From Lytechinus pictus (Eukaryota): a stretch of DNA of 64,000 bases. A program made the position numbers and the translations under genes. The notes below the pieces were generated by a model. The model ran no database searches. It was not told the origin of the DNA and saw only the letters and a program-made list of their open reading frames with translations. Of the stretch, positions 12,401 to 57,578 are shown one piece after another (within the stretch, counting starts at the first letter, position 1; every line of letters begins with the position of its first letter). Location of the stretch: assembly GCF_037042905.1 (NCBI RefSeq), contig NC_087245.1, positions 4,280,001 through 4,344,000 of the forward strand. Reading direction: 5' to 3'.

Positions 12401-15400
12401 GTATATTTTCATCAAATTTTGAGATGTTTGTGAATAACTTGCCTATGGTAACATATGATAATGATTGTACACTCACCATAGAGGAAGATCAGGATTAAAC
12501 TGGAAAGGTTCTTCTACTCTTTCATCTTCAAACTCTATCTCAACCAGCAGCTCCATGAAAGATAAAGGAAGGTATGAAGATATACTCACATGACTGAAAA
12601 AAAGATAACAAAATAAGAGTTTAAAGGGAAGAATAAGCTGTTTTAAAAACAAAGCGATACTAACACCAATGACCAGAAATAGACATGGAAAGCAATGCCA
12701 AGTCCCAACATTTCAACGCAAGTCCCATTTCAACTTCTGACACTGATGGCTTCACTGACTTTGCTTGTTCAATATAGTTTATATATTTTACTTTTGCATT
12801 TTTTGTTATACATCTGTTGAGAGTGCCACATAGGGCATGGTTGCCTTCTTCTTTATAACAACCATCTGCCCCCACAGGCCACTTGTCAATGTTGTAGGAC
12901 TCGATGAGTCCAAGACCAGACTCGAGTCCTTTAACACTGGATGATAATGAGATTCATATCGTTAGCATTCAGTGATACAATATTGCTTTGTATCTCTACA
13001 CATATACCCTAAATGAATAATCAAGCTCCCCCCCTGAAAAAAAATATATTACTAAAAAGTTGCTCATATTCTCACTACCCCTCCACATATCTGAATCTGG
13101 TTATATTCATTCTTGTCTGGAGAGATTCCTCCTTTGTTGTTAATCACCTTTACTTCTTTTCTCTATGATCACACAATAAAATACAACTTTAGCGATCGGG
13201 CAAGAATTAGCAAAATGTCCAACAATCAGTCCCGAGAACGAATGAACTGTGCAACTGTTCTTCTCTAGAACCTAGTGGCTAAAACAGTCTATGAAGCCTC
13301 AATAGTGATAGCTGCCTAAACTATGGACCCATTTATGGAAGTTTACAATCCTCATTAATTGATACACGTTTACTTTGAATTCTACAAGGAACTTCACAGG
13401 ACAGGGTCTTTCAGGGGAATTCTTTATGACAGATCAAACACAATTTGTAGGATGAGTTTAGTCGCTTATCTCATTGATTGTATTTGCATTACCACCTACT
13501 GATTGGTTATTTACATATCATCAAATGTCCATATCCGGGGTTATTTAGACTATTCCTTGGAAAACTTTGATTTAAATGATTGGTTTATAGTGGTAACCGA
13601 TTCTTATCAAGTTTAATAATAATCATATTTGCTTATTATAGTTTCCTGCCATTTCATCATCTGTCTTACCTGTGTTTATTACTCATTATTTTCTTGATTA
13701 ACAGTCTGAAACACACTTCTGATAATATCTCACATCATACTAATTAGTCTCTATTTATAGGGATTTCAATCCTTGTAAGACAACATTTTTCATATTTTGA
13801 AATGATGAAACTTACATTATAAATAATTCTTTATAGGTTTTAGTCAAATTTCGACTAATAGACTAAACATCTCATGATTGAGACTAATCATTGCAATTAT
13901 TGTTATGATTTATTGAATGAAAATGTTACTGTTCTACTGGACAAGACATAATTTTCTCATACAAAACAAATCTTCCATCTATTGTTTTAATTTTTGATGC
14001 CATGCTGCATGCATAAAATTTTGAAGAAGTAAAATTAATTCAAAGACAGCAAATAAACTGTGTGATTTATAACCAGGCTAAAAAGTTCTACAATAACTGG
14101 ATGTATTAACAAGGCAAACGCCAAGCGTTGTCTCGCCTGCATATTGCAGTCATGAAGAGACTGCATGTCAAAACTATGCTATATGACTTAGATGGACCTC
14201 TGTTACGAGTTTGGCGATCCCACCTCAAAGCTATAGAAAGTTATTGTGTGTACAACACAGCACAGTGCCAGTCATGGAAAGTTCATTGACCTTTGACCTT
14301 AATCAAATTCAACTCACATTTGAACTTGACCTGCATGCACCTTCAAAAGATGGACCTCTTGTATGAATTTGGCAAACCTACCTCGAAGATATAGAAAGTT
14401 ATTGTGTAGCACAGTGCCAGTCATGGAAAGTTCATTGACCTTTGACCTTATTCAAATTCGGCTCACATTTGAACTTGACCTGCACCTTCAAGAGATGGAC
14501 CTCTGTTATGAATTTGGCGATCTCACCTCGAAGCTATAGAAAGTTATTGTGTGTACAACACAGCACAGTGCCAGTCATGGAAAGTTCATTGACCTTTGAC
14601 CTTATTCAAATTCGACTCATATTCGAACTTGACCTGTACATTCAAGAGATGGACCTCTGTTATGAATTTGGCGATCTCACCTCGAAGCTATAGAAAGTTA
14701 TTGTGTGTACAACACAGCACAGTGCCAGTCATGGAAAGTTCATTGACCTTTGACCTTATTCAAATTCGACTCATATTCGAACTTGACCTGTCCCTTCAGG
14801 AGATGGACCTCTGGTATGAATTTTGTGATCCCACCTCGAAGATATAGAAAGTTATTATGTGTACAACACAGCACAGTGCCAGTCATGGAAAGTTCATTGA
14901 CCTTTGACCTTATTCAAATTCGACTCATATTCGAACTTGACCTGTGCCTTCAGGAGATGGACCTCTGGTATGAATTTGGTGATCCCAACTCGAAGATATA
15001 GAAAGTTATTATGTGTACAACACAGCACAGTGCCAGTCATGGAAAGTTCATTGACCTTTGACCTTATTCAAATTCGACTCATATTCAAACTAGACCTGTG
15101 CCTTCAGGAGATGGACCTCTGGTATGAATTTGGTGATCCCACCTCGAAGCTATAGAAAGTTATTGGGTGTACAACACAATTGTTGACGACGACGACGCCG
15201 ACACTGGAAATAGTGATACCTATGTCTCGCTCGGCTACGCAGGCGAGACAAAAACAGGGTGAAATTTCATTTTGCAAAACTGGATCTAGATATAAAATTT
15301 CTGCAAAATCAAACAAGTCTCTTGCTAATAAAAAATTGTATTGAGGGATCTAGAAATGAATGTAATGGACTGTATTAAGATGCTATGTCAGACTTACCTT

Positions 15401-18400: not shown

Positions 18401-20619
18401 CAGGAACAATCGTGCATGCAGTAATACTGTATGTTCCTTTTATTGAATAAGGAGCAGCAAATACACCTCTTTTATGAATTATGGTATCAATGATTTGCCA
18501 TATAAAATTTTGAATTAAGGACTAGTGAATATACCATTTTTGTAAATAAACTTCTTTTATGAATAAAGATATCTATGACAGGTATATTTGATATTCTAAA
18601 TATAGGAAAAGTAAGCCCTTTTACATTTTATGACATTCATTTTTTTTTCCATATTTGAGATCAAAAGATCCATTCCAAATGTAACATATATCCCTTGGAA
18701 TCTCTTGGGATGATAATTACCAGTGACAGTACCATTTTCATCCAATAAATTACCATGGCAACATTCCTGAACAGACAGCCCAGAAAAGTTAATATCAAAA
18801 GCAACAATTTCATCAATGATAAGTTTATGCATGACACCTTGATTATTTAAGTATTTGAGAATACAAGCATTATGACACCAACAAAGCCAAAAAATAAAAG
18901 TTTCACAAAAGAGAGAAAAAAATGACTTCCAGAAAAGAGGTACCGCATGACTTAATAGTAAAACTGAAAAACAATGAAGGTTATTGTAGAGCAAGAATCA
19001 TTTCAGACGAAGAGTTGCTGATCAATAAACCAATGATATCTTGTGATCATTTTATCTCCCGCCAATTGCTCAAGGTTTTAGTTTTTATCGACACTAATGG
19101 GAAAAAAGTTTGCATGTGATGTATGGTTTTTAATATAGGATTGGGATTTTCAGAAAGAGTGATATGGGAAATTTGTTAACATTAGTACATTGTGTATTGC
19201 AGGAACATCTGAAACGCAAGAAGAAGCAATAGGAAATGCAATCAAGGAGTAGACTACAATTACACAAGACAGACTGTGAGAATAAAACATACCACTTTAA
19301 GACAAGAGAGCTTGATAGCCTGAAGAGAGTTACCTATTCCTATCTCCCAGATCTTGACAAGCTGAAAATAAAGATTGATTGATGAAAGAATATAATGATC
19401 ACAGAAAAGGATAAATAATAGACTGATTAGTAGCTTGTGAGAGGTGAGTTGGTATTGCAGTAAAAGATGTTTTACATCTACAATGTTGACATTGATATAT
19501 CCAACATACTAAATGTCATTCTGTCAACCTGATTCACTGCCCCCCCCCCCTCCCCAATAATAAGGCAACTTCCTTGAATTTTCTCTCTCGTGGAACTGAC
19601 TCATGCTGCAAACTTATTTTCATATCATGTTCTTTCATATTTGGTTAAAATTCGAGTCTTGTTTTAAATTGTGTAGATCTGTAGAAATGAATTATGAACC
19701 AAGATTACAATACAGTTTTTGTGGTATGAACTTGTGTGAGTCAAGATACCACTATAAATGATCAGCAAGTTTAGAAACTTTATCATTTCAGACTGCAAAC
19801 AAATATATATATAATACTGATTATCAAATAATGCATTAATAGTTAAGGCATACAATGCTATTATTTCTCTCGGTCACCTGATCAGTCACCTGATGATCAG
19901 CCGTGAATCTTTGGTCATTGGGGTCATACAAAGCACAGAGGATCCTTGGAGAATACAGAAACAACTGTACCTCATATTCAATTTCAAATAAATTCATTTA
20001 TTTTCCACTATTTAATAAAAATTACATCAAAATTGCACAATCACCAATCAACATAGAAATCCTTCACTCTAAATTGATATTGGATAGTCTTATACAATGT
20101 ATATTCATGTGTAGAATTCACAAGAAAGATCTAGTGCTTGGCAGGAAAAGATTCCTTTATCTCACCCTGTCTGAACCACATGAAATAAGCCTGTCTGCAC
20201 TGGCTATATAGTTATCCACCTCTGGTCCATAGACTCCGTGGGAACATTCTAGTGCTAGGACACCCCCTCCATGAGCTTTCAGTGGGTACTTCATAGAGTG
20301 AGATTGACATTCTATCAGTGAGATCTGACCACTAACTAGACCAGCAAAGATGAGGTAATCACTAGTAGGAGTTTCCTCACAGCCATTAGCACAATCCTGG
20401 GAAGGAACACACACACACACAAAAATTAAAGAAGGGAGGAAACAAAACTGCGATGAACATAATTGATATATTACCTGATTTAACCATGAGAAAACCTTAT
20501 ACTAGTAGTTTTCTGCTATTTGATGTTTCTTTCCAAACAAACAAATTCGTAATAAATTTCTTTGCATCGATGTTGTGTTGGAGAAAATCATGATTATCAT
20601 CACCATCACTATCACCATT

Positions 20620-20659
<40 letters not shown>

Positions 20660-20749
20660 CCATCATCACCATCATCCTCACCATCATCCTCATCATCACC
20701 ATCATCATCATCATCATCATCATCCTAATCATCACCATCATCCTCCTCC

Positions 20750-20780
<31 letters not shown>

Positions 20781-23700
20781 CACCATCATCCTCACCATCA
20801 TCACTATCATCACAATTGTCACCATCATTACCATCATCATGATGATGATAATCATTGATAAAACCACCTGGAATTCTATGTAATTCAACTTTCAATGACT
20901 CACAAGGAAGATCATGACAACCCTCTGGTATTATCTTACCAATTTGACTAAGGCAAGACTTATAACCGATTCTTCAGGCATCATGGGTACCAGAAGTTCT
21001 TTAGCCTGACATGGATTGGTTGAACTATCAAAGATTAACACATCACCCATCTCAAGAACAGTGAAGATCAGAGAATTCTTGGGGTCATAGACGATATCAG
21101 TCAGCACCTACAGAAAAAAACACCATTAAGACCAAAACAGACCCTAGAATGGATGTCGTTGGTCGTCGGATGAAAAAAAAACCAAAACAAACACATAGAA
21201 CCTTTAAAATTCTGGTTTAAACTTGCGATTTAATACTACTTGCAGGTGTTTTAAATGAAGAGCTATCTGGGAATATCAACAACTTGTATATGACAAGCCT
21301 GAAATGATTTTTCATCATTTATAATCATATAAGAGAGATGGATGATGGAAGTTACAGCCAAGCCTGTCAGGGCACTGTTTAATGATTATCATTGATCAAC
21401 AATTACAAATTACATTCTCTGGAAATTTCACTGATATGATTGTGAAAAGGCCCTGAAACATAAAGTTCAGAATTACGATTGATCTTTAGACAGACTTCTA
21501 TGATTTATTGTATTGATTATTGATCAATCACTATACCTCAGCCCCACCATAAATCAATAAGCTTTACGTTCCGGCCCCCCCCCCCCCCCCTTTCTCTGAC
21601 TGTGACTATATAACTGTTAGAGAATGTTATCTTCTGACAAGTTGAATGACACAGTATCCATTATCTGTCCTGGATATAGTCCATGAACAAACTTACCTGG
21701 TAAGATGGCATAGGATATATGATGGTAAGCTCTGTCCCTGATACAGCCGATATCAATCGTACACCACCATCCTATTTAAATAAATTACAAAAAAAAACAT
21801 GTAAAGGATATATATTCAAGTTTGGGGTTTTGTCATATTTATGGAAGCAATGACCAAGTACAGAGATGAAATTCATTTTTATGGGGAGAGGGAGTACAAA
21901 CTTTGAAAAATGAAATCCACTTTGAAATTTCTGCTGACGTAAAGACAAAGAAAAAATCAATATAGTAATAGTATATAAAAATAGAATTAAATCAAATATT
22001 AAAAATAAATGTTCATCCCCGAACTCATCAGTAATAATAAAAAGGAATCATACATGTATGTCTAAAAACAGAACATTGAATGAGAACATTTAACTTCAGT
22101 TATTCATCAATTAAAATGTAACAATTATAAATGAATTTTCTTGTTTAAAAAAATGAATAATTTCATATCAAATGTTTACTTATTTCATGAAAGTCTAATA
22201 ATTGAGGATGACCTTTGACATGTGACCCTGGACTCACCTCAGCTGCACATAGTATTCTAGATGGTGAAGAAGGACTGGTAATCCTAGCCAGCTTGTGAAC
22301 GCAAGACCTTACTGGTGTGAATAGATGATGGAACTATGGACAAAAAAAGTATAACCACATGCATTATCAAAACCAAGTAATCCATAGATTTCATAATAAT
22401 GAGATATTGAACATTTACAAAACATTACAAATGAAGCTTTGACAGTTAAAATGGAATGAAAGTGCCATTACATAATCTTTCAAACTTATAGGCCCGTATT
22501 CTGAAGTCGGATTTAACTTAGACCATGGTCTAACTCTGCTAAAATCATGGGGAGCCAAAAATTCAAAAATTTTGTTTTTATTGTATATTAATTATGTTTA
22601 ATATTTTGCTTTCATAATGAAAAAAAAAATACTCTGAAATACTTAATTCATCATTCTCAGACAATTATGAACAATTTGGGTGTCATATGAGTTAATAAAT
22701 TGGATGTGTACTGTAAGGGATTTGTGCCTCAATTGACCCTCCATAGTTAAACCACAACTTTAAACCAAACCAGGGTTTAATTTGAACCTGAGTTCAACAC
22801 ATGGGTCATTGTTTTTATGATTCTGTGCATGTAAATACAGTACTCACCAAATTGAAATTCCACACTTTAATATCATGTGATGTGTAATAGTAAAGTTGAT
22901 TGGAGTTTGCCAATTTCATTCCTAATACTTTCTCCCCTACATTCAATCTATGAGTCTGTGAATAAAAAATAATAAAAGAACAGCATCAATTATAATTGGT
23001 TTTACTATCATTTTATTCCAAAAGATAAGTTACTAAAATGCTATCCATAAAAGGTATTTTCTACCAGACCTGTATAAAAACAAAATTGTTAATTGATCAG
23101 ATAATCATAATCACGAAAGGCACCTAGACATCTTAATGTCCTTTTTAGCATTTTGGGGTTTTATTTCATGAATACCTTTTCAAAACTGCAGTGTGTTGAA
23201 TATTGACTTGCCATTACTTTTATTGTTGTCATTTTTATTCAACAAATTACATATATGTTTAGTTGATACTGTTATTCATTTTTCATTTTTTTCTCCTTAT
23301 TCTAATGAATAGTAATATAAAGGTAACAGCGTGTAACACACAAATTGACAACTGAACAGTCAATGAGTACTAACCAATTCAAAGGTATCCAGCCTCCAGA
23401 TCCGTAATGTTCCATCTTTAGAACTTGATATAAGGAGAGGATCCGCAGGATGAATAACAAGACCTGCAAGACAACAAAAATAATCAATACCAAAAATATA
23501 AGTTTTGTATATTGGATCACCACAATTTTTCTCCACAGGAAAATATAAGTACATGTATGATACAATAATATTCATGTTTGATAAATCCTAAACTAAATAA
23601 TATGTTTCCAGATAATATTTCACTTTGCTTTTCCAAGTTTCACACAAATAATGCATGGGCTCTAGATATTTGGTTTTCAGCTCCGATAATATAAGTGAAA

Positions 23701-26700
23701 TCTTGGTTTTGATAATCAGTTGAGACGCACTGGTATTTGCTAATAAAGCAACTGTTATAGAACATTAGTGCTGATAACCTACATGAAACTGTACAGAGAT
23801 AATGAGATAGCAGTCCAAGGAAATGGTGTCAAAGAAACTTGTGTATGTTTTCTTTTTGTTCAACTTTACAACTTCAAATTTACAGTATGGAGAAAAATTG
23901 CTCTTTCAGATCAGGTTATTTTCTCATGTTTGCTATTTGAAGACAAAATTATTATTTTGGTTATTTTCAGAGAACTTTCTCTGGCGACTTATTATTGGGT
24001 TGGGGGTGGCTGGTCACTAAGTCATTAAGTGCATCAAGACTCTCTTGAGTCAAATGCAAGTTACATTCATTAGTATTATTATTGATATCATCTAAATGGT
24101 AAAGTTTCGAATGAATACAAGAAGGTCTACTTCTGCATATTGCAAGAAAAAGATAACAAAATTGCAGTAAATAAAGGAAATACTTTCAATCATATGAAGT
24201 TAACTGACCAGTAACACTAGCATAGTGGCCAATGAATTGATGGACTTCCTTAAACACCACAGCGTTCCAGACCTTAATAGCCCCGTCCATAGATGCTGTG
24301 ATGCAGTACTCAAGCTTGCGGTAGAAAACAAAACTAAAAGACAAAGGAAATACATGTTCATAAAAGATATCCGGTTTCCTCGTGGAAGTAAAGGATTTTA
24401 CTTTAAGTACCCTGTATTGAATTCCTTTGAAGAAATATGGGGAAGTGATAGAACATGTGGATTTTCATGCAAATGAAAGCATTTGCTTTAAGTTTTCAAA
24501 TAAATGCAGATAATTTCTCAGTTTTCACTGTGTTTGAATACAGTACTGAGGTCTTCGTATTTATTTGTTGAAATACTGTACCTATAAGCTTCGATAGTAG
24601 TTAATGTTGGTGTAAGACAGCACCCTGATGTAATATAACATATATCTACTGTCCTAACAATAATTGATGTCTGCTATTTTGACAATATATTCAGAGTTAT
24701 TGCTGTACCAGGAATTGTGAAATGTTTTTTAACTGACGTTTACACAGTTGTTAGAATGATATCAGAGCAAAGCAATATATCTCTCTCTTTTAAATGATTG
24801 GAGAAAACCTGATTTATGAATTATAAAACACATAACTTGTCTTTGTGGCCTTCTAGTATTATGATACCCATAAAGTAAATGTGAGGGATTATATCAAGAT
24901 TCTAATTTGTTTTCATTAAAGTGAAAGAAACAGATGCTGAAGGTAATCCTATATTGACCTGTATAAAACTTATCATTTCTACTTTTGTGAGGATTCTATG
25001 AATCATGAAACATTCTACGGAATCTTATTGAATCCTTTCTCTATAGAAGTTGTATCAAATTTGAAAGAAGAACATGCAACAGTCATACATGTAGGCTTAC
25101 TCTTAAAATGATATAAAACTAAAAGTGAAAGAGCTAAACTAGATTGATCCTTGACTGCACACACTCAAATGTTATGCCTTCTCCACTGCCAGATTGAAAC
25201 TATATTGCATATTTCATTCTAATATTGTTTAAAAAAGTGTATTTTAAGGTAAATAATGATGACCTCTGTTATCACAAAAATAGGACGAAAGGACGGACAG
25301 AAAACATGCATCCGCCAAAAAAAAATGACATCATTTTAATACAAAAAGGTCATCAAATTTCCATGTCATATTGAAAAACATGTTGGATTAAAGAAAGGAT
25401 TAAGATATTTTTTGTTAATTCAATTCATGGGATGGTATTGAATAAAGAGCACATGAACACTCAGGTGGTTAAGTGGTGTAAAACACTGGTTTAGTAACAC
25501 AGGGGTCATGGGTTCAAATCCCTCAACAGCAGTTATTTCTCATAACAATTGTAAATGCTGTACTGTTTAGAGACATATGATGATATTTGATGTGAAAAAT
25601 GCACTAGTGTTTTGGATACTGCATGATTGTAAGGCATCATAGTGACATACATGTAACCAGTTCAAATTATTATTTCCTTCTTCACATAATTCTACAATTG
25701 ACAGATAAACCATGTGCATTTACCAAGTAAGTGCAGATGCATGCCAATTCTTGATGCAGTAAACCTCGTTGTTTGTGATGTAATTGATGATGTGAATACC
25801 CTCATCACAAAGAGCAAATAATTGATGACGTTTGCGATCAACCCGAACATCTCTAACCCAGTCATCTTCTGTTATCTCACTCTCGATTGGCCGACCTCGA
25901 ACAAGAGGGTCCCGGATCTGCATGCAAGTAACAATCAATTTGAAAGTAACCATGATAATCCCTTTTGTTTTTATTCAAAGCTTTCCAAATAGTCTCTTTT
26001 TTTTGGTTCAGTAATACCTTTCTATATCTAGATGCTTAAACAACCAGGAGCCAACCTTTGATAATTAAAGGACCTGCTTAAGTTGATGAACTAAGAAAAG
26101 TAGATAATAGTTTGCAAACAATGTCCAAAAGACATCACTAATAGTGAACTCAAATAAATTCTAACTATACTTTAACCTAAAAGTTATCAGGCCTTGTTTA
26201 GTATATCATGCAGATCCACACTGAGTCTGAAAGATTGAAAATACTCAAAGATTTTGAGATCTGAATCACAGTTATTAAAAAGTTATCCCAGAAGATCATG
26301 AACTAACCTCCACATGGGTCATCTTCCAAGCTTGTAAAAATCCTCGGCCACCAGTCACAAGTTCATCCATGTCTTCATTATATACCATACTAGAATTTCA
26401 ATCAAAAGTCAATTAAAGATATACATTTTTTATTGCAAAATGACCATATTCGTTCTCGGTATCGTTCAGCAATTTTGTTTTCAATTTTGAAAGAAGGAGA
26501 ACGAAGGAGACAGAACTTTTCCTTTTTTTTGAGGGTCCAGTTTGTGCCTCGATGTCAGGATTCTGTGTCACCACAGACCTTCATAGATCTATACAATCCA
26601 GGTAAGTGCATAATTTTTTTCCCCCTTTTATTTGGGGTGCTATTGCGACCATATTCTACCCCATTTTGGAAAGTACCATCTGCCTAATATTACACTTATC

Positions 26701-29700
26701 ATCTTCATATTGATCATAATCTGAATTTTCTATTCCAATGTCTTATCTTATTTGTTGAAATCACATCTCAATCTTAATAAATAATTTGTGTCTTAAATAT
26801 ATTGAAATCTTTAATCTTATAAGATACCTACCATAGGATAGTTTCTGAGCAGTGTGATTGAGTAAGTTCCATGCAATTATTATTGAGATCGCTGAATACA
26901 TGCAGAGTCACATCAGGGGAATAACCAACAAATACCTGAAGAAATAAATCAATGTACATATGTGATCCATTTACATTCATTTTTTATTTTATAATATTTG
27001 ATATCATAGGAATGAAGGACAGCTGCTTCTTTGCAATACTTTCAGGAATTAATTACTACATTATTTAAATCACTTCCATGAAATATTGCAGATACCTGAA
27101 AAATCTTTGTAAAAATTAGAATTGAAGACAAATATTATACATTCATACTTTTTAGTTTTCTTCTCACAACAAGCATGAAAATGACCATAAAATTCTGAAA
27201 TGACAAACTCAACTACCATACCATCATTACAACTCACCCGATGTTGTGGTACAAATATAATCCTGGACATGAGTGTGTTTATCTTGATTCTAAGGTGATT
27301 GAAGCAAGAAAATAAACATCAATGGCTAGTGTTTAAAGACATGAATAAAATAAATAGCCCAGTCACTTACTTGAAGAACGTATTTAATTCAAGCTTTGGA
27401 TCTCAAATGATGGATGAGTAAATTAATTTTGGCATTTTATGAAGCATATATGATATATTTTCATAGCAAATATAATTCATAATATTGCCAGTGATTAAAA
27501 ACAATCTTGTCAACTTAATGAACTTATAATCCTGAACAAAAAATATAAACAATTTTTTATTTAAGATCTTTATTGATCATTTGTTCCTTTCTCATTTTCT
27601 CAAAAAATGGTCAATAAAATTTCATAATTCCACTCACTTAAACCTTTTTTTTTAAACTCTCAGTTAACAAAAAATAACATTCAATTTATTCTTAAACCAT
27701 GATCACCAACTTTTGTAAATTCTATATTCATATCAAAAACTATTTTAGCAAACTATTAGTTACCATCTCATCAATTTTTTGAGACAGGATTGAAAAGCAA
27801 CATATTAAAAAAAAACTGACCTTTGACATTTGACCTCCTCATCAGGCAAAGTGCTGACAGACCAAAAGTAGACTTCATTGATGACACCAGTGTCTACTTG
27901 AGTTACATATATGTTACCATTGGTGCAATGATAGAACGTCATACATCTGATCACATGACGATGATGAAAGGTTTGGGCCAGCTAAAAATTAGAAGAAATA
28001 AAACTTGGGATCTTAAGAGCTGTGGTTCTAATGTTCAATAGACCATGTATAAATAAATGAATCTTTATTTCAATTTAAATGAAATATTACATACAGCATT
28101 TAAGATTACACTTTCATAACTAGGATCTAAAAGAAGAGGTATTACTATCCCCCACACCTCCCAGATTAAAATCTGTGGACAATAGCCATAATGTTACAAG
28201 TTCTACCTGTTAGACCTACATGCTTGAATGGTAAAAAAAAAAATCATTATTTGCATCAGAGCAGAACATTTTTTTAGCTAAACTACTAGACCAAAACTTC
28301 AGTCTCTCTGTTTTGTCATTTCTTCTACTGGACTATCTTGCTTCATTACATCTTATTTTATACCATTCTGTTTTAAAATGCTAAATAGCATTCTCTATAG
28401 GGGACCAATTCCCCCCACATTTATTATTCATTTTTGCTATTAATACATTTTTCATGGAAAGATAGGTCTATAAATGAGTGAAGTTTTGAAAATAATCAGA
28501 ATCTAGTAATTAACACCATCCCGTAACAAAATAAGAATCAATGTTATTTACATGTTAACTAAACTCTCTTTTTTTTAGGGAAACAATATTACTTAGTCTA
28601 TAGTATGGGGCATCAATCCCTCAAACTGTGAGACGACTAGTCGTGTTGGAGGAGAAACAAAAAAAAAGTTAACAAATATGTTTTTAAAGTCCTCTAGATG
28701 GATTTCAGCTGTCTACTATTAAAAGTTTCAATTAGACCCCTTGCATCTTTTTTTATTCAGAATGGGGGTCAGATGTCCGGACAAATAAGCAGATAAAAAC
28801 ATAATCTTTTGCTCTGGATTTACAGATAATTCTTTACAAATAATTACTTCTAAATATCAATATTTCATTAATCAATTGGAAGTTCCGATTAATGAAATAT
28901 TGATAAAAAAATTCCTGGAATTGCAGTCTTGTTCGGAAATGTAACAACTGGGTACACATTCAGTCAAATGTCATACCATTACCCACTCATTCAATGAACA
29001 AGGTTATGATATAACCTTGTTCTCAGTTATATCTCCATGTGTGGCAAAATAAGGGTGGCAATGTTTGGCTTATTTTCTCTTTTTCTTTGGGACAAATGCT
29101 TGAATTTTTTTACACTGACAGTTTTCATTGCACCTATTCGTAATACAACTTGGCTCTTAAGTAAATTTGATTCTTTAAATTATTTTTTCTTAATTAAAAA
29201 TAGAGATCAAAAAATGAAAATTTTCTTGCCATATTACTTTCCACCAATAGAGGGCGTACACAAAAATATGCCCCAAAATCAAGTTTTTGAGCGCTCTGGT
29301 GAATACAAAAATTATTCCCAAGTTACTAATGAAAAATAAATTGCAACTGTACGGAAATTAGTAATTTTGGTCACAAAAGTGACATTTTAATCATTTTTTA
29401 AAGTGTGTGCTCTGTACAGCATTGGCATGCCATAGTCCAACCTGTAGATTCCCCACAGGCAGGGTGGTTGCAGTGAACAAGTGCCATTACCAAGAGTTAA
29501 AACTTCATTCAGAATGCAGGCCAATTACTTTAAAATTTTGTACCTTGAAAAATGTACTTAAAAAAGGGCTAGGCCAGTAATGTGTATGTATTTGAGTTTT
29601 GTCAGACGTGTATCAATCAGATATAATTATTTACGTCTGGGACCGACCTTTAACGTCACCATTCGAAAGACGTGACCAGGGCTCGAAGCTCGAACCTCTG

Positions 29701-30333
29701 CATCAATTTGTAACTTCCTCACATAGCTTGGATTACTAAACAGGCGCACGCCACAACACCGTAATGTAGAAATAGATCTATGCTTAATGCATGATATAAA
29801 TGGAGAGGTATCGGTTAAAAAATAAAGAAAAAAATATACAAAAATCGTTAAAAAATGCAGTGTATGGTCTGGTTCCTAATACCGTACTAGTACTTCTTTA
29901 TTTGATCTAGTAAGATGGGGGGGGGGGGGTGTCTGGACACTTTTCCATTTTAAAATGTCAATGAACTGAACTATCTGATGCCTCGTTATCCATGTTGTAA
30001 CACTACAGTGTGTATCCATACTCTAATAATCCATTATGACATTGGATTGTAAAGTTACTCTCAACCTTCCTATCCCCTTGGCTTCCATTACATCCTTTCG
30101 GTTAAGCGGTTATCCCAACAACTCAATTATCATCGCTACAGAAATTCAATGATCACCACCGGGCCAGCTCAGGCAGGCATTACGCACGATTTGCGTAGCA
30201 GTACTACAAAACTTACCTGGAGTCCATAGGGAACCATAACGCAGTGTTCTTCTGGATCTGTAGTTCTTAAAATGTGTTCAAGTTGTTCCCTAACATTGAG
30301 CCAAGGCCGGAATTTAGAATCCAGCAATGCCAT
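351..30333 (-). CDS. WDR87: Multi-exon WD40-repeat protein, WDR87-like (WDR87/WDR97 family); 31 exons in window, 3' end beyond left edge
   Basis: 31 GT-AG exons join in one open frame (3798 nt, 1266 codons) from ATG 30333. WD motifs: ITASMDGAIKVWN, GHYASVTGLVIHP..ISSSKDGTLRIWR, ATTSDDGALKIWD. Segments RILCAAEDGGVRLIS, VLIFDSSTNPCQAKELL and VCFANPRGDLLVGF resemble recalled vertebrate WDR87. Later come APDGYIPNSVIR, poly-Pro and HEAT-like helices. WDR87 versus WDR97 orthology is not proven. Confidence 0.8.
819..990 (-). CDS. WDR87-like exon 30 (LVNFGGPM...NAMADNE), HEAT-like
   Basis: Overlaps ORF 783..986; TAG acceptor, GAG|GTCAGA donor, phase 2 to 0. Confidence 0.8.
1098..1468. mobile_element. 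Foldback-type non-autonomous DNA element, copy 1
   Basis: Inverted arms built of ~15-bp subrepeats; 8-bp TSD AGTTCACC/AGCTCACC. Confidence 0.8.
1985..2054 (-). CDS. WDR87-like exon 29 (SLLEESSSDRYKSICDLLLELN)
   Basis: TAG acceptor, GTAAGC donor, phase 1 to 2. Confidence 0.78.
2914..3327. mobile_element. Foldback-type non-autonomous DNA element, copy 2
   Basis: Collinear with 1098-1468; 8-bp TSD GAGGCAAA/AAGGCAAA. Confidence 0.8.
3484..4348. mobile_element. TTAA-flanked non-autonomous DNA transposon (Kolobok-like)
   Basis: TTAA-AGATCCAGACCGG ... CCGGTCAGGGTCT-TTAA; AG..CT termini. Confidence 0.7.
4469..4634 (-). CDS. WDR87-like exon 28 (RGTLAGISQDEEE...TVKTL)
   Basis: Within ORF 4434..4643; CAG acceptor, GTGAGT donor at 4468 keeps frame with exon 29. 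Confidence 0.8.
4967..6041. mobile_element. Kolobok-like MITE family A (host of a nested insertion)
   Basis: TIR AGGGAAGTTCAC / GTGAACTTCCCCT with long imperfect inverted arms; TTAA/TTTA flanks. Confidence 0.7.
5347..5940. mobile_element. Kolobok-like MITE family B, nested copy
   Basis: TTAA-AGGTCAAGTCCACCCC ... GGGGTGGAATTGTCCT-TTAA; homologous copies at 52601 and 58310. Confidence 0.85.
6461..6535 (-). CDS. WDR87-like exon 27 (VSTKKTKRTGRG...KKYKR)
   Basis: AAG acceptor, GTAAAT donor, 25 codons. Confidence 0.62.
6878..7076. mobile_element. Small MITE with 8-bp TSD
   Basis: TGACATTTG / CAAATGTCA inverted ends; TSD TTCTACAA/TTCTACAC; internal GGTTA/TTAGGG-like repeats. Confidence 0.55.
7117..7175 (-). 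CDS. WDR87-like exon 26 (KVVGKLVLSHPGFSEERGKT)
   Basis: TTTTTTCAG acceptor, GTAAGT donor, phase 1 to 0. Confidence 0.72.
8201..8387 (-). CDS. WDR87-like exon 25 (EDHEPYTW...RRLSL)
   Basis: Within ORF 8160..8393; CAG acceptor, GTAAGT donor, phase 0 to 1. Confidence 0.78.
8947..9000 (-). CDS. WDR87-like exon 24 (VPEGRVHFVEGDQSDVEY)
   Basis: TAG acceptor, GTAAGT donor, 18 codons. Confidence 0.7.
9801..9892 (-). CDS. WDR87-like exon 23 (GYIPNSVIRKIVQ-P8-SSPKEWKLKD)
   Basis: Completes APDGYIPNSV; AAG acceptor, GTAAGT donor. Confidence 0.82.
10305..10387. mobile_element. 83-bp Harbinger-like MITE
   Basis: TIR GGGCCCGTAACACAAAG / CTTTGTGTTACGGGACC, CAG TSD. Confidence 0.7.
10454..10717 (-). CDS. 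WDR87-like exon 22 (ESSKISK...KLPIAPD)
   Basis: Overlaps ORF 10359..10691; CAG acceptor, GTATGT donor, phase 1 to 1. Confidence 0.82.
11269..11382 (-). CDS. WDR87-like exon 21 (TAESKKTAP...DQALSIS)
   Basis: TAG acceptor, CAG|GTTAGT donor, symmetric phase 1 to 1 (skippable in frame). Confidence 0.7.
11697..11926 (-). CDS. WDR87-like exon 20 (FNLKTIPTFP...LAEKR)
   Basis: Within ORF 11647..11934; CAG acceptor, GAG|GTGGGT donor, phase 2 to 1. Confidence 0.8.
12477..12593 (-). CDS. WDR87-like exon 19 (HVSISSYLP...FNPDLPL)
   Basis: CAG acceptor, GTGAGT donor, phase 2 to 2. Confidence 0.85.
14108..15254. mobile_element. Helentron/HINE (DINE-1)-like non-autonomous element with internal satellite
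   Basis: Subterminal inverted repeat TTGTCTCGCCTGC (14128) / GCAGGCGAGACAA (15239), terminal hairpin 15223-15250, central tandem array, GAC microsatellite. Confidence 0.7.
14190..15178. repeat. 154-bp tandem repeat, about 6.4 copies
   Basis: AGATGGACCTCT recurs at 14190, 14348, 14493, 14647, 14801, 14955, 15109. Confidence 0.95.
15398..15513 (-). CDS. WDR87-like exon 18 (IWDVTNTLVREL...FANPRGDLLVGFQNHI)
   Basis: Family-typical CFANxRGDLLV motif; CAG acceptor, AAG|GTAAGT donor. Confidence 0.9.
16025..16231. mobile_element. Harbinger-like MITE
   Basis: ~36-bp TIR GGGGGT(A/G)TTTCACAAAG..TTTAAGTATGACTTAGAG; CTG TSD. Confidence 0.75.
16292..16360 (-). CDS. WDR87-like exon 17 (ITALCSCPSLGLFATTSDDGALK)
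   Basis: WD40 repeat; CAG acceptor, AAG|GTAAAT donor. Confidence 0.88.
16498..16580. repeat. Degenerate (CAT)n microsatellite
   Basis: Direct reading. Confidence 0.7.
16688..17055. mobile_element. Penelope-like relic with inverted terminal segments and hammerhead-like motifs
   Basis: 13-bp TSD ATATCCTGACATT (16675, 17056); inverted arms 16688-16772 and 16908-17023, each with CTGAGGA-stem-GAAACGTC. Confidence 0.65.
16904..16949 (+). ncRNA. Minimal type-I hammerhead-ribozyme-like motif
   Basis: TATGTC-CTGAGGA-C-AACAAG-AACACA-CTTGTC-GAAAC-GTC-GAGATA: core boxes, stem II, stem I with 5/6 pairs. Confidence 0.45.
17136..17292 (-). CDS. WDR87-like exon 16 (VVDMYELS...DHDHTKQ)
   Basis: Within ORF 17124..17342; CAG acceptor, CAG|GTAAAG donor, phase 2 to 0. 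Confidence 0.82.
17913..17983 (-). CDS. WDR87-like exon 15 (IACTASPSHLSMLGNILCTVLPT)
   Basis: Long polypyrimidine tract plus TAG acceptor, GTGAGT donor, phase 0 to 2. Confidence 0.78.
19293..19361 (-). CDS. WDR87-like exon 14 (LVKIWEIG...CLKV)
   Basis: Completes WD motif GSDR-LVKIWE; CAG acceptor, GTATGT donor. Confidence 0.8.
20166..20396 (-). CDS. WDR87-like exon 13 (DCANGCEE...LISCGSDR)
   Basis: Within ORF 20157..20420; CAG acceptor, GTGAGA donor, 77 codons. Confidence 0.88.
20590..20850. repeat. Imperfect (CAT)n microsatellite
   Basis: Direct reading; produces spurious poly-H/I/M ORFs. Confidence 0.95.
20940..21107 (-). CDS. WDR87-like exon 12 (VLTDIVYDPKN...LALVKL)
   Basis: TAG acceptor, GTAAGA donor, 56 codons. 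Confidence 0.88.
21697..21771 (-). CDS. WDR87-like exon 11 (DGGVRLISAVSGTELTIIYPMPSYQ)
   Basis: TAG acceptor, CAG|GTAAGT donor, 25 codons. Confidence 0.85.
22238..22333 (-). CDS. WDR87-like exon 10 (FHHLFTP...SRILCAAE)
   Basis: TAG acceptor, GAG|GTGAGT donor, 32 codons. Confidence 0.85.
22490..22808. mobile_element. Degenerate Harbinger-like MITE
   Basis: GGCCCGTATTCTGAAGTCGG... versus ...CCTGAGTTCAACACATGGGTC imperfect inverted ends. Confidence 0.45.
22848..22955 (-). CDS. WDR87-like exon 9 (THRLNVGEKV...IKVWNFNL)
   Basis: CAG acceptor, GTGAGT donor, 36 codons. Confidence 0.85.
23375..23463 (-). CDS. WDR87-like exon 8 (GLVIHPADPLLISSSKDGTLRIWRLDTFEL)
   Basis: WD40 repeat; CAG acceptor, GTTAGT donor, phase 1 to 0. 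Confidence 0.9.
24209..24333 (-). CDS. WDR87-like exon 7 (FVFYRKLEYCITASMDGAIKVWN...GHYASVT)
   Basis: Classic WD40 repeat; TAG acceptor, GTCAGT donor, phase 2 to 1. Confidence 0.9.
25461..25530 (+). mobile_element. Decayed tRNA-derived SINE head
   Basis: A-box-like GGTGGTTAAGTGG and B-box GGTTCAAATCC. Confidence 0.4.
25724..25917 (-). CDS. WDR87-like exon 6 (IRDPLVRG...HASALT)
   Basis: Within ORF 25720..25953; CAG acceptor, GTAAAT donor, phase 0 to 2. Confidence 0.85.
26308..26389 (-). CDS. WDR87-like exon 5 (CMVYNEDMDELVTGGRGFLQAW...)
   Basis: TAG acceptor, GTTAGT donor, phase 2 to 0. Confidence 0.85.
26832..26935 (-). CDS. WDR87-like exon 4 (VFVGYSPDVTLHVF...ETIL)
   Basis: CAG acceptor, GTAGG donor, phase 0 to 2. 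Confidence 0.85.
27238..27289 (-). CDS. WDR87-like exon 3 (IKINTLMSRIIFVPQHR)
   Basis: TAG acceptor, GTGAGT donor, phase 2 to 0. Confidence 0.8.
27821..27981 (-). CDS. WDR87-like exon 2 (LAQTFHHRHVIRCM...VKCQ)
   Basis: TTTTTAG acceptor, AAG|GTCAGT donor, phase 0 to 2. Confidence 0.8.
29584..29760 (-). mobile_element. SINE with 7SL (Alu-domain)-like head
   Basis: Minus strand starts GGTGTTGTGGCGTGCGCCTGT..TAATCCAAGCTA; B-box-like GGTTCGAG; ATAC tail; 7-bp TSD GTAATGT. Confidence 0.7.
30217..30333 (-). CDS. WDR87-like exon 1 (MALLDSKFRPW...VPYGLQ)
   Basis: GCC-ATG-G start context, 39 codons, CAG|GTAAGT donor, CpG-rich surroundings. Confidence 0.8.
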
Positions 30334-30560
30334 GGCCAGAATTCAACCCCCTTTCGGGGAATTCGATCTGGAATTCTTAAGCAATATGATGTGATGTGGG
30401 TGACTAGCCGGCGTGACCCAAAACTAGCGCATTGTGAAAAATGTAAACAATAAACACGTGCTACTCTCGTTTCTTCAAGCGAGGATCATACAATGATCTA
30501 TCAAGTCATTATGACGTAATACTCGCGGCATGCGCTCAGTGGTGGACTTTGGGGTAAGGT
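30334..30560 (-). promoter_or_regulatory. Probable promoter/5' UTR region of the WDR87-like gene
   Basis: Locally CpG-retaining unique sequence directly upstream of the ATG; forkhead-like GTAAACAATAAACA near 30443, CRE-like TGACGTAA near 30512. Confidence 0.5.
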
Positions 30561-48260: not shown

Positions 48261-48583
48261 TTAGGGCTTAATATCATCTGGGGTATAATACTGCCCTTCC
48301 CGTAGATACTCCTTCAGTCGTCTTGGCAACGGGAGGGCATCAATATGGTCGAGCCGGACGTGTCGGCGGATGACAAAGCGGCACATGTGCTGGAGGGATC
48401 GAGCCTTCTGGAACCGAGAGATTGGATAAAGTAGCTGAAGAGGGACGGGAGGGAGTCCTGGCCATCTTGGACGAAGGAAGTAGAGGAAGCGGCCATTCCT
48501 GGAGTGGCGCATCGCTTCCTCTATAAATTCTACGATAGATGAACTCCCATGAGTTGTTGGTTGGGACCAGAAGCTGAACTTGC
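48261..48583 (-). CDS. SOCS7: SOCS7 terminal coding exon (SH2 C-terminal part plus SOCS box)
   Basis: CAG acceptor in phase 1, SLQHMCR...LPLP SOCS box, TAA stop at 48261-48263. Confidence 0.93.
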
Positions 48584-51500
48584 CTGAGGATGAAAGAAAT
48601 GAAGAGGACTTTGGTTAGGTGAGAATATGGAGTCATTATGCAATGGTAGAATAGAACCATTTTTCACCAAAGATCAATATAAACATAATGGCAAAGATGA
48701 TATTGGCCAATGGAATGAAAAGAATTAAGGCCCTTCTAAACCATACGCTATTTATTCCAATGCAGTGAAAGATGTACCACTCTTTTATTTTAATAAAAGA
48801 AAATGCTCTTTCAAATTTGGTACTCAAGGAAATTTATTTCAGGAGATGTAATAATAAAAAAAGCTATTGTCTTGTTTAAAACAAGAAGTCACGAAATCTG
48901 TTTACACACTGTGGTACTTAATATTCACAAAATCAATAGACAAGTTACTATAGGTTATTTTAGAAAGTGATGGCAATTCCATTTCATAGAGTAATACTGT
49001 AAATGTATAGTAGGGCATTTTCACCACAGATGGACACAGAGGCACAAAAATCAAGTTGATATTCATGTCAAATGCTTTATGTTTTTTAATAAAACAAGAC
49101 CTGAAGTTTCTGAGACAAAATTTTTTTCGGACTCTGGCAGCCATTTTTTATTTCAAAATGGCTGCCAAAGTATAGATACAAATTAGTGTTGAAAATAGTA
49201 TATTGATACATATTTTGTTTTGACAGATTTTTAAAGAACAGGTTTGATCATGATGTTTTCGCCTGTGATTTAGCTTGCTATTATAACACTCTTTAAAATC
49301 CCACAGAAAGAAACACTAGTAATTCATTCATCTGATAAAAAAACATTGATGAAGTATGTGATATGGTATGTAATGTCAGTTACCGAAAACATGAACTTTT
49401 TTTTCTCATTTCCTGGAAAAGAGGATATATTATATGAAACTTGGTAGATTACCTCTCTAGGTAACACCCCTCCCTTCTACACCAAAATTAAAGATTACCA
49501 ATTAACAATGAAGCCATAGGGTACCATTAAATATATGTAATGTCAGTTACCAAGTGGAAAATGTAATGTCAGTTACCGAGGTGTAATGTCAGTTACCATG
49601 ATAAAACGTTGGTTACCAATATTGAAATGCAAATATGTGGTCAATTTTGTGGTGAAGAAATATTGTATACTTGTTATTTAAGTCTTTCACTTTAAAAGTC
49701 ACACCAGAAGGAGCTTGTTATTGACTTTTAAAAGGTATAGTTCACAAGGAATACTATATAAAATTATGAAGGAAGTTGCATTCCCATCGTGCAAAAAAAA
49801 TTAATATGAAATTGTTTTGTACATGCACTTACCAAGTACCTACATGTAATTGTTTATATCAGACAATTTTTTGTTTGGTTTTCGGGGGGGGGGGGGGGTA
49901 GGGGGTACTTTTCCCAACCTATTGCCTAAATCTGCAACATTTTTTAAGCTTAACATTGTGATGAAGGGGATTTCCAGGGTCCCTTTTTTAGTTTCTAGGA
50001 TTCTTTTGAGCATTGCCTCGCTAAAAGTAAATTCCTGGTTTTTATACCTGTTAGTAGTGTGGATGTGTGATACAATTCTGTTTTTGGTTTACAAGTATAG
50101 ATGAAGAGTAAAATTTGACAGTTCTGATCAATGTTGCGTGGATCTACTAAAACTGTGTTGTTTTTTTTTCTAATTTACAAATCGTTCAGTTTCAGTTTAG
50201 AAGCTGGAGTTTATTTTTGTTGACAGCTTAAAAAAGAAATTAGCAAAGAAAATTATTAAACAAATTATGAAGAGAATTGAAATCCGAAAGATATGAACAA
50301 GCATTGCTTGCACTGACCAGAATAGAAATCAATAAAACTACATGGCTGCATGAGATTCAGGGGAGGGGTACGTGTAGCCTAGGGGAGGAGACCCTTATTC
50401 ATTTTGCCTTTTTGAGGGGAGGGGGAGGTTGGAGAAGGAAAAGGTTTAAAAAGTCAATATAAAACTGATGAATATATTATGGGTGTATGTACATGTATAG
50501 TCAGAAAAATCCATGTTTACAGTCAATGCAATATTAAATTACTATAGGAAAACATGTAGCTGCTATGACCCCCCCCCCCCCCCCCCCCCCGAGTAAGTAA
50601 AACATACATTTCTTATCTTTTGATAATTAAAAATGTGAAGTATTATGAAACTTTTATGATTTTAAAAACCCTTACATATAAGTACCAAGAAAATTATGCC
50701 TTTGAAAATCATATAGCACTGGTAAATGTTAATGTGTATTGTCAGTTACCGACAAGTAATGATAAAAATGTTCAAATCAAAGAAAGGAATTGAAAAAAAT
50801 AAAAAGTTTTTTCATTGAAATGTTCCTAGAAACTCGGGTATACTTCCACATCAAGCTCACTTTCATGTGAAGCCCTGCACAGAAGATACAATGCAATGAT
50901 TCCACACATTTGACTTCCATGTGTTATCTCTATGGCAAATTAAGTGTAATGTCAGTTACCAGCATGGTTTTGGAAAAATTATCATAGCCCCCAAAAGACA
51001 AAAACAAATCGTTTAATATTTTGACACATCTTAACCTAGTAACGGAGGTATATTTACATATTCAAATTATTACTCTATCTACTCAGGGACATGAGATATT
51101 TCAATTTTAATGAACACCCTGATATTGCATGTCCTTTTGCGTAATGTCAGTTACCGACACATTTTTGCTTGCTGATGCGTAAAAAAATGTGGTTACATAG
51201 GAAAACTTAGTATCAGAGTATACGGCAAGGTTTACTTTATTAACTCTATCAAAAGTAAACTCCCATCATTTGTTGTTTTAGAGATACACACAGTGAAAGG
51301 TGTGAAAACATTGTGCCGTGTAATGTCAGTTACCGTGAAAATGCCCAGTAGTATTTAATTTGGGAGATTTGAGAAAGCATAAAAAGGGCAGGGGCAACAA
51401 TTCCAGGGAAATTACTGCAATATTGCTGAGCCATGAATGGGCTTTGGTCACTCAATACTGCAGACATATATCCCCCAAAGGATTTAGAGTGAAATCAATA

Positions 51501-57361: not shown

Positions 57362-57578
57362 CACACTGTTAAAAACAATTTAAACAACGCTGTTTACTAT
57401 GTGAATCGCACAGTAGTTGTTTAAACAGTTTAAACAAGTGTTTAAAATCTTTTTAAAAAAATTTAAATTCAAATATTCAATTATCAATAATTAAATCATG
57501 GTTGTTTGATTTTAAACACTCGTTTAAACTGTTTAATCTACCGTGTGATTCACATAGTAAACAACGTTGTTTAAATCA
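57362..57578. mobile_element. Palindromic MITE-like element
   Basis: TTTAAACAACGCTGTTTACTATGTGAATC / GATTCACATAGTAAACAACGTTGTTTAAA inverted arms. Confidence 0.65.

What the first reader, a model, noticed from the sequence alone, without database searches (positions are those of the whole stretch)
29584..29760. 7SL/Alu-domain-headed composite SINE in an invertebrate genome
Seen: on the minus strand this 177-bp element begins GGTGTTGTGGCGTGCGCCTGT(TTAG)TAATCCAAGCTATGTGAGGAAG. It continues with a B-box-like GGTTCGAG, then CGTCTTTCGAATGGTGACGTTAAAGGTCGGTCCC, ends in an ATAC tail and is flanked by a perfect 7-bp duplication GTAATGT. Known: the 7SL/Alu 5' domain reads GGTGGCGCGTGCCTGTAGTCCCAGCTACTCGGGAGG, and 7SL-derived SINEs are rare outside Euarchontoglires. 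The middle resembles my recollection of the Deu-domain motif (GTCTTTCGGATGAGACGTTAAACCGAGGTCC). Inference: an independently evolved Alu-like SINE chimeric with a Deu-domain piece, inserted sense in intron 1 about 450 bp from exon 1.
Basis: partly seen in the sequence, partly recalled or inferred. Interest (0 to 1): 0.75.

Follow-up and report, generated by a model that had tools for sequence, protein, structure and literature searches.

The report
Sea urchin SINE with 7SL head
This is one slightly damaged copy of a many-copy jumping element in a sea urchin. Its front end matches the start of the signal-recognition-particle (7SL) RNA, as in human Alu, an origin that the papers read here report only from a few mammals and a hagfish.

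Summary
29584-29760 (minus strand) has a 7-bp target duplication and lies in intron 1 of a WD40 gene of a sea urchin. Reads show a dispersed family of hundreds to thousands of copies in two organisms, with about 12:1 sense-biased RNA. The family's first 30 bases match the hagfish 7SL-derived SINE head at 28 of 30 (by eye). Clear similarity ends near base 47, the 5' Alu domain. A B-box/T-arm stretch, about 38 bases of the Deu/Nin 5' end, a strong stem-loop (z -4.5) and an (AC)n tail follow. No 3' Alu strand was found, unlike Alu, B1, Urop and the hagfish element. Against: Rfam gave no SRP hit, I could not obtain the host 7SL gene, and a competing helix hides the SRP9/14 motif in the computed fold. 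This copy lacks 4 head bases and has a 5-base insertion in that motif. Eight literature searches listed no invertebrate 7SL SINE; Dfam and Repbase could not be searched. This scan already noted what reads as the same family on other pieces of this genome (12 notes seen). Verdict: new variant of SINE1.

The parts
29761..29767 (-). Target-site duplication, 5' side (7 bases)
   Evidence: Exact repeat of 29577-29583
29713..29760 (-). 7SL-like 5' Alu domain, family bases 5-47 (A box, helix 3, UGU motif, helix 4); this copy lacks family bases 1-4
   Evidence: Family bases 1-30 match the hagfish SINE1-1_EBu head at 28 of 30, and bases 1-48 at 37 of 48 columns (by eye). A 20-base motif of that head hits only here with 2 mismatches, 0 of 100 shuffles. 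Helices 3 and 4 are in the minimum-energy fold of the isolated head
29735..29739 (-). 5-base insertion at the UGU motif, absent from most copies
   Evidence: tables 4 and 7. One contig of organism A carries it without differences over 29707-29848, so it is real and not an assembly error
29700..29712 (-). Linker of unknown origin, family bases 48-60; bases 47-51 can pair with bases 23-27 of the head
   Evidence: Pair probabilities 0.81-0.97 in the full-length family RNA
29673..29699 (-). B-box / tRNA T-arm-like stretch with a 7-base tandem duplication that gives two GGTTCGA motifs; the second is damaged in this copy (29688)
   Evidence: Direct repeat D13. One unit is missing in 9-17% of depth. 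25 of 30 columns (4 gaps) match the 3' half of the tRNA head of Lsa_Nin_1 (by eye)
29639..29676 (-). About 38-base piece like the 5' end of the Deu/Nin domain
   Evidence: 28 of 38 columns match AmnSINE1_HS from position 213 (by eye); also like BivaMD-SINE1, Pan_1-3 and Lsa_Nin. A 13-base motif hits only here, 2 of 100 shuffles
29603..29639 (-). 3' stem-loop, the likely recognition site of the partner LINE's reverse transcriptase (function inferred)
   Evidence: -13.0 kcal/mol, z -4.5, 0 of 500 shuffles, family-majority letters
29584..29602 (-). Tail: A-rich motif, then (AC)n; it runs on for 3 bases into the target duplication
   Evidence: Loose ends at 29581 and 29587 and the majority change at 29586
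29577..29583 (-). Target-site duplication, 3' side (7 bases)
29560..29565 (-). First run of four or more T downstream (six T), a possible Pol III stop; the family sequence has no such run inside
   Evidence: such runs are common in this 33% G+C DNA
30217..30333 (-). Coding exon 1 of the host WD40-repeat gene (context)

Best explanation
The stretch is one decayed copy of a young SINE family of a sea urchin close to Lytechinus. SHOWN: a dispersed family with uniform structure, a target duplication, an (AC)n tail, and a 7SL-like head limited to about 47 bases. INFERRED origin: the 5' Alu domain of the host's 7SL RNA replaced the 5' half of the tRNA head of an older Deu/Nin-type SINE, by template switch or recombination. 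The T-arm B box, a stub of the Deu/Nin body and a LINE-type 3' end were kept. INFERRED mechanism: Pol III transcribes the element from a hybrid promoter (7SL A box plus tRNA-type B box) and stops at the first T run in the flank. A partner LINE's reverse transcriptase recognises the 3' stem-loop and primes at a nick, helped by pairing of the (AC)n tail with the target. The 7SL head may also dock the RNA on ribosomes through SRP9/14, as in Alu. My odds: SINE family 0.97; head from 7SL 0.9; B box from a tRNA SINE rather than 7SL 0.65; SRP9/14 binding matters 0.45; partner of the Nimb/I group 0.4. This copy is probably dead: 4 head bases lost, an insertion at the UGU motif, one B motif mutated.
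For:: summed contig depth is about 1.1-1.2 million on the element against 41-60 on exon 1 in two DNA runs. At least 124 contigs carry the commonest changes, and 3' flanks are many and unlike (agreement 0.4-0.5). RNA depth is 2007 against 171, in the same mate direction as the host exon. 78 molecule ends pile at 29754-29755, at family bases 10-11.: 28 of 30 head bases match the hagfish 7SL-derived head; 0 of 100 shuffles give the 20-base head motif; helix 3 (6 pairs), helix 4 and a closing 1-3:45-47 stem can all be written with standard pairs; the 3' stem-loop has z -4.5; there is no internal T run; tRNA T-arm likeness; precedent of a 5S head fused onto a tRNA-Deu SINE; 46 bases of the Alu 5' domain suffice for SRP9/14 binding and one round of retrotransposition in HeLa cells.
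Against: Rfam gave no SRP RNA match for this copy at E up to 10 or at the gathering score. No 7SL gene could be fetched for alignment (searches were all empty). The head is no more stable than its shuffles (z 0.2, 280 of 500). In the full-length RNA helix 3 has probability 0.12, the closing stem 0.0, and a rival helix 23-27:47-51 covers the UGU motif. Family base 37 appears to be U where the human loop-loop pair has C (human pairing recalled; one search hides 41 rows). About 630 RNA reads share one 3' flank, so the RNA signal may rest on few loci, and this copy's own flanks have depth 0. No empty site was seen in any of 4 runs. The copy number is only bracketed. All comparisons with published SINEs were made by eye.
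Confidence: 0.8

Rival explanations
1. The head is from 7SL but serves only as an A-box donor or passenger. The RNA folds otherwise and does not use SRP9/14; mobility rests on the 3' stem-loop alone.
For: The competing helix over the UGU motif has p 0.81-0.97 and helix 3 has p 0.12 in the full RNA. No helix-5 partner was found (161 of 300 shuffles pair as well). A variant with 2 bases missing in the helix-4 loop makes up 81 of 421 RNA reads against 0.4-1.1% of DNA depth.
Against: Clear homology stops near base 47, the tested minimal SRP9/14-binding unit. Helices 3 and 4 and the UGU motif are intact in the majority letters. Energy models omit the protein and the loop-loop pseudoknot that stabilise the fold.
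Confidence: 0.45
2. A conventional SINE1: 7SL homology runs to about base 84. The B box was tuned from 7SL's own internal box, as in Alu and the hagfish element, and no tRNA piece is involved.
For: The B motif sits at bases 64-80, close to the 7SL B box at 76-86. A gapped by-eye alignment of bases 49-84 with the hagfish head gives about half matches.
Against: About half matches with free gaps is near noise. The same stretch fits a tRNA T-arm of a Nin SINE at 25 of 30 columns. No 3' Alu strand pairs with bases 48-66.
Confidence: 0.25
3. The whole head is tRNA-derived and resembles 7SL by chance.
For: The first 16 bases match the tRNA-derived head of the snail SINE Lsa_3 at 14 of 16 columns (by eye), so the A-box region is not diagnostic. 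Rfam gave no SRP hit.
Against: Bases 17-36 match the hagfish 7SL head at 18 of 20 columns, where the tRNA heads seen have an unrelated D-loop sequence. ARAGORN and Rfam found no tRNA either.
Confidence: 0.04
4. Contamination or horizontal transfer of a vertebrate Alu-like element, or a one-off chimeric retrocopy.
For: The head is very close to a vertebrate element.
Against: Thousands of contigs in two organisms and four runs carry it. A contig of organism A spans the 5' junction without a difference. Two contigs of organism B run from the 3' flank 45-68 bases into the element. Body and tail are not Alu-like.
Confidence: 0.02

Closest known systems
SINE1-1_EBu of the hagfish Eptatretus burgeri (PMC7245038; parts 1-3 of 4 of the text read, supplement passages seen)
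   Same: 7SL-derived head (28 of 30 bases), chimeric with modules of another SINE/LINE, microsatellite tail, mobilised by a non-L1 partner (inferred here), young.
   Different: The hagfish element keeps 96 bases of 7SL 5' part plus a 3' Alu strand (bases 97-140), has an RTE-derived tail with (AAC)n and about 17-base duplications. This one keeps about 47 bases, shows no 3' strand, has a Deu/Nin stub, an (AC)n tail and a 7-base duplication.
Alu, B1, Tu and shrew-mole Urop (PMC13023118; passages and section 8 read)
   Same: 5' Alu domain at the 5' end; A and B boxes at similar spacing.
   Different: All arise from an internal deletion of 7SL that joins its 5' and 3' ends, and the mammalian ones have poly(A) tails. 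Here no such join was found, and the rest of the element is foreign to 7SL.
SA46/AY46 minimal Alu constructs (PMC12199147; passages and first part of the Discussion read)
   Same: The same 46-47-base unit.
   Different: The constructs are artificial and driven by an outside promoter. The authors argue such a truncated form did not succeed in evolution for want of a B box; this family appears to be a natural case that gained one.
DeuSINE / Nin-DC / Inv-alpha SINEs: AmnSINE1, EbuSINE1, BivaMD-SINE1, Lsa_Nin_1, SINE2-3_SP (PMC4824008, PMC4758252; passages and supplement parts seen)
   Same: The 5' roughly 38 bases of the domain, preceded by a T-arm-like B box; head replacement is known here (5S onto tRNA-Deu).
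   Different: The rest of the Deu/Nin domain is absent, and the head is 7SL-like, not tRNA or 5S. I did not see the SINE2-3_SP or Inv/alpha sequences.

Membership tests
SINE (SINEBase definition, PMC3531059) | Short (under 1 kb) and interspersed, not tandem | tested here: met
   176-177 bases; many unlike flanks; single copy in 64 kb
SINE (SINEBase definition, PMC3531059) | [quoted passage not shown] | tested here: met
   Depth ratio 20,000-26,000 in two DNA runs. Indirect: no genome count was made
SINE (SINEBase definition, PMC3531059) | At least 60% identity with tRNA, 5S or 7SL over at least 60 bases | tested here: inconclusive
   37 of 48 columns against a 7SL-derived head, by eye; the clear match is shorter than 60 bases and no 7SL gene was at hand
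SINE (SINEBase definition, PMC3531059) | Pol III transcription from internal A and B boxes | tested here: inconclusive
   Boxes present, no internal T run; sense bias about 12:1 and 5' ends piling in the head; polymerase not tested
SINE (SINEBase definition, PMC3531059) | Simple-repeat tail; target duplication as the mark of LINE-driven insertion | tested here: met
   (AC)n tail; 7-base duplication; no empty site seen
SINE1 (7SL-headed, as used in PMC7245038) | 5' part derived from 7SL RNA | tested here: met
   28 of 30 bases match the head of SINE1-1_EBu; motif test 0 of 100 shuffles. Indirect, through a published SINE1; Rfam SRP models gave no hit
SINE1 (7SL-headed, as used in PMC7245038) | Closer to the host's own 7SL gene than to other species' 7SL | not testable with these tools
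   No genome held; six collection scans empty. Earlier scan notes claim it; not checked here
SINE1 (7SL-headed, as used in PMC7245038) | Not a plain retrocopy of 7SL | tested here: met
   About 130 of 176 bases are B-box, Deu/Nin-like, stem-loop and tail modules shared across copies
Alu/B1/Urop/Ebu1-1 type (internal deletion, whole Alu domain) | 5' and 3' ends of 7SL joined, forming helix 5 | tested here: not met
   Bases 48-66 pair with downstream sequence no better than with shuffles (161 of 300); no match to hagfish bases 97-140 by eye
Alu/B1/Urop/Ebu1-1 type (internal deletion, whole Alu domain) | 5' Alu fold: helices 3 and 4, UGU motif, loop-loop pairs | tested here: inconclusive
   Helices and motif present in the isolated head, z 0.2; out-competed in the full RNA; broken in this copy
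Alu/B1/Urop/Ebu1-1 type (internal deletion, whole Alu domain) | SRP9/14 binding | not testable with these tools
   Needs a binding assay
DeuSINE / Nin-DC | Central domain of 70-330 bases (PMC4824008) | tested here: not met
   Only about 38 bases match (28 of 38 columns to AmnSINE1); the downstream core is absent
Inv/alpha-domain SINE | Match to the Inv/alpha consensus, which overlaps the Nin-DC 5' end | not testable with these tools
   SINEBase supplement not readable; the overlap is stated in PMC4758252

The most novel reading that the evidence does not exclude
The first 7SL-derived SINE outside chordates, and the first built from the 46-47-base 5' Alu domain alone. It is a natural 'SA46 plus borrowed B box' that uses SRP9/14 ribosome docking to capture a non-L1 LINE with a stringent stem-loop tail. 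That would make the SRP trick general across phyla and LINE clades, and show that the shared internal deletion of all known SINE1s is not required.
Probability: 0.4. Interest if true: 0.8.

Novelty: new variant of a known kind. Interest (0 to 1): 0.68.

Why it matters
Papers of 2020, 2024 and 2026 (PMC7245038, PMC10886601, PMC13023118) limit 7SL-derived SINEs to supraprimates, a hagfish and a shrew mole, and treat one shared internal deletion as the key to their success. A sea urchin family adds an independent origin in another phylum with a different build. It bears directly on a stated prediction (PMC12199147) that a 46-base Alu head cannot succeed without a B box. With many young copies in a laboratory-tractable animal group, one can test whether the Alu fold is under selection for SRP9/14 binding or is only a promoter part. 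The copy in this window has no sign of a host function.

Tried and rejected
Own genome: none held. Rfam at E up to 10 on 1,501 and on 81 bases, and at the gathering score on the window: no SRP, tRNA or 5S match. ARAGORN: 0 genes. Pattern scans for more copies or for 7SL genes: 0 hits in metagenome contigs, genome contigs and viral contigs, so no alignment or covariance model could be built. The run search listed no holder on record as RNA, which is no evidence either way; a raw RNA run of the same species label was laid instead. True 7SL reads did not appear among the loose ends shown (1,048 rows hidden, and human-like reads are dropped), so no test came of it. Folding of the whole window copy was unremarkable (z -0.5). 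Two protein searches with single exons found nothing; one search settled the gene. A first copy estimate of about 20,000 from summed depth was dropped: the tool warns it is no copy number, and overlapping short contigs inflate it. A DNA-transposon reading was rejected: none of the 25 of 46 inverted pairs shown joins the two ends. SINEBase supplements and file 1 of two other supplements could not be read; they may hold a matching sea urchin family or the Inv/alpha consensus.

Full report
Observation. An exact 7-base direct repeat abuts both ends; chance is about 9e-5 at one fixed place and about 1% with 5 bases of slack. There is no second copy in the window. The host gene's exon 1 (30333-30217, GT donor) and exon 2 (from 27981) match residues 1-39 and 40-94 of a 2,013-aa WD40 protein of Diadema antillarum. 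The element therefore lies 456 bases into intron 1, in sense. A SOCS exon elsewhere in the window is 100% identical to a Lytechinus variegatus protein cluster and 99% to Diadema antillarum. Exon 1 of the WD40 gene is only 82% identical to the Diadema protein. The host is a sea urchin, probably near Lytechinus (inference).

It is a repeat family. No genome is held, so I laid 4 of the 23 listed runs on 29300-30350 at 80% likeness. Summed contig depth at 29624-29659 is 1,085,463 and 1,177,633 in two DNA runs of organism B, against 41 and 60 on exon 1; in a run of organism A it is 37,632 against 4.5. The tool warns that this is no copy number. Short overlapping contigs can inflate it up to about 31-fold (my reasoning from the word length), which brackets the family between about 600 and 26,000 copies. 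Earlier notes of this scan give 1,300-1,600 (unchecked). The 3' flanks are many and unlike, and the tail is (AC)n. Most laid records are 90-99% alike, a second repeat in the stretch included. This copy differs from the majority at 6 or more of 172 places (41 rows hidden), lacks 4 head bases and has a 5-base insertion that one contig of organism A confirms. Two contigs of organism B run from the 3' flank 45 and 68 bases into the element, which suggests a shared insertion, though they carry 14-15 gap letters. No empty site was seen.

The head. The loose ends give the family's first 30 bases. They match the head of the hagfish 7SL-derived SINE1-1_EBu, printed in the supplement of PMC7245038, at 28 of 30; bases 1-48 match at 37 of 48 columns (both by eye). 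A 20-base motif of the hagfish head hits the window only here, with 2 mismatches; 0 of 100 shuffles give a hit. The first 16 bases alone are not diagnostic, since a snail tRNA-SINE head matches them at 14 of 16. Bases 17-36 are diagnostic: 18 of 20 columns with the hagfish head. Against this, Rfam gave no SRP match for this copy at E up to 10 on 1,501 or 81 bases, nor at the gathering score. The copy holds only about 43 homologous bases split by an insertion, but I could not calibrate that negative. Six collection scans for further copies or 7SL genes were empty, so the host's own 7SL gene was not compared.

Fold. With majority letters the isolated head folds helix 3 (4-9 with 18-23) and helix 4 (28-30 with 42-44) around the UGU motif at 23-25, and bases 1-3 can pair with 45-47. 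These are the parts of the 5' Alu domain, whose UGU U-turn binds SRP9/14 (PMC8137916, passages). The fold is no more stable than shuffles (280 of 500). In the full RNA helix 3 drops to probability 0.12, because bases 47-51 pair with 23-27 (0.81-0.97) and cover the motif. Bases 48-66 find no downstream partner better than shuffles (161 of 300), so no helix 5 was found. The calculation omits the protein and the pseudoknot, so it weakens the SRP model without refuting it.

Body and tail. Bases 61-87 hold two GGTTCGA motifs from a 7-base duplication, one unit of which is missing in 9-17% of depth. They match the 3' half of the tRNA head of Lsa_Nin_1 at 25 of 30 gapped columns, and the hagfish 7SL stretch at only about half. 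Bases 84-121 match the start of the Deu domain of AmnSINE1 at 28 of 38 columns, and a 13-base motif hits only here (2 of 100 shuffles). The rest of the domain is absent; described members keep 70-330 bases (PMC4824008). Bases 121-157 form a stem-loop with z -4.5, 0 of 500 shuffles. The end resembles by eye those of BivaMeta-SINE1 and a firebrat V-type SINE. Meta and V SINEs are linked to Nimb LINEs among others in PMC11481361 (passages), so a Nimb/I partner is a guess.

Expression. In a raw rRNA-depleted RNA run of organism A (about 6% of the run read) depth on the element is 2007 against 171, in the same mate direction as the host exon (depth 1-2); the neighbouring repeat reaches only 8-115. 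Listed loose ends run past the 3' end in 1,408 reads and past the 5' end in 116, and 78 molecule ends pile at 29754-29755. This fits transcripts that start at the head, as Pol III transcripts would. However, 630 reads share one flank, the insertion in this copy biases alignment at the 5' end, and this copy's own flanks have depth 0.

How it most likely works. Shown: family, boundaries, modules, sense-biased RNA. Inferred: the 5' Alu domain of 7SL replaced the 5' half of a tRNA head in a Deu/Nin-type SINE, as a 5S head did in other Deu SINEs (PMC4758252). Pol III uses the 7SL A box and the kept B box. A LINE enzyme binds the 3' stem-loop and primes at a nick; the (AC)n tail continues 3 bases into the duplicated target, which fits pairing at priming. 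SRP9/14 docking is possible (0.45): 46 bases suffice for binding and for 86% of Alu's mobility in HeLa cells (PMC12199147).

Comparison and novelty. It works like a SINE1 and passes the tests for a SINE as far as they could be run. It fails the internal-deletion feature of Alu, B1, Urop and the hagfish element, and fails DeuSINE membership by length. PMC7245038 (parts 1-3 of 4 read), PMC10886601 (passages) and PMC13023118 (passages, section 8) name only supraprimates, hagfish and shrew mole as hosts of 7SL SINEs. Eight searches (listings seen, at most 30 rows each) showed no invertebrate case. The library lacks most subscription papers; Dfam, Repbase and the SINEBase supplement were out of reach. 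This scan has noted what reads as the same family on other pieces of this genome: 12 notes seen, 74 fitting the look-up. A sequence look-up found none, so identity of the family is judged from their descriptions. They are not independent support.

Verdict. A real, young, 7SL-headed chimeric SINE of a sea urchin; new variant of a known kind; interest 0.68. The boldest reading, a natural minimal Alu head that recruits SRP9/14 outside chordates, has probability about 0.4 and would deserve 0.8.

Noticed in passing
window 63530-63840, minus strand: A second, unrelated SINE with a tRNA-like head and a CORE-like middle. The CORE label and the likeness to the sea urchin SURF1/SP-4 group are recalled, not tested; ARAGORN did not call it.
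   Followed up: no
window 29300-29483: Another high-copy repeat 94 bases downstream of the element: summed depth 0.16-0.85 million in the DNA runs, sharp edge at 29483, weak RNA signal mostly from the other strand.
   Followed up: partly
window 30020-30055: A small depth bump (1,944-3,670 against about 50) marks a short fragment of a further repeat in intron 1.
   Followed up: no
window 29724-29725 (family variant): A variant lacking 2 bases in the helix-4 loop makes up 81 of 421 RNA reads, plus 199 loose ends, but only 0.4-1.1% of DNA depth in organism B. It is perhaps one strongly expressed locus, the one whose 3' flank is shared by 630 reads.
   Followed up: no
window 29572-29578 and 29761-29762: The target reads AC-TGG across the 3' end of the duplication, the same as the family's first 5 bases, which suggests microhomology at the 5' junction.
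   Followed up: no
window 5342-5945, 52591-52950, 58302-58927; 1099-1461 and 2915-3305; 57378-57576: Palindromic, MITE-like dispersed repeats of at least two families.
   Followed up: no
window 14190-15178: Tandem array with a period of about 154 bases, about six copies, 88-92% alike.
   Followed up: no
window 48261-55093, minus strand: Exons of a SOCS-family gene with SH2 and SOCS box.
   Followed up: partly
window 20497-20890: Long (CAT)n-type microsatellite in the WD40 gene region.
   Followed up: no
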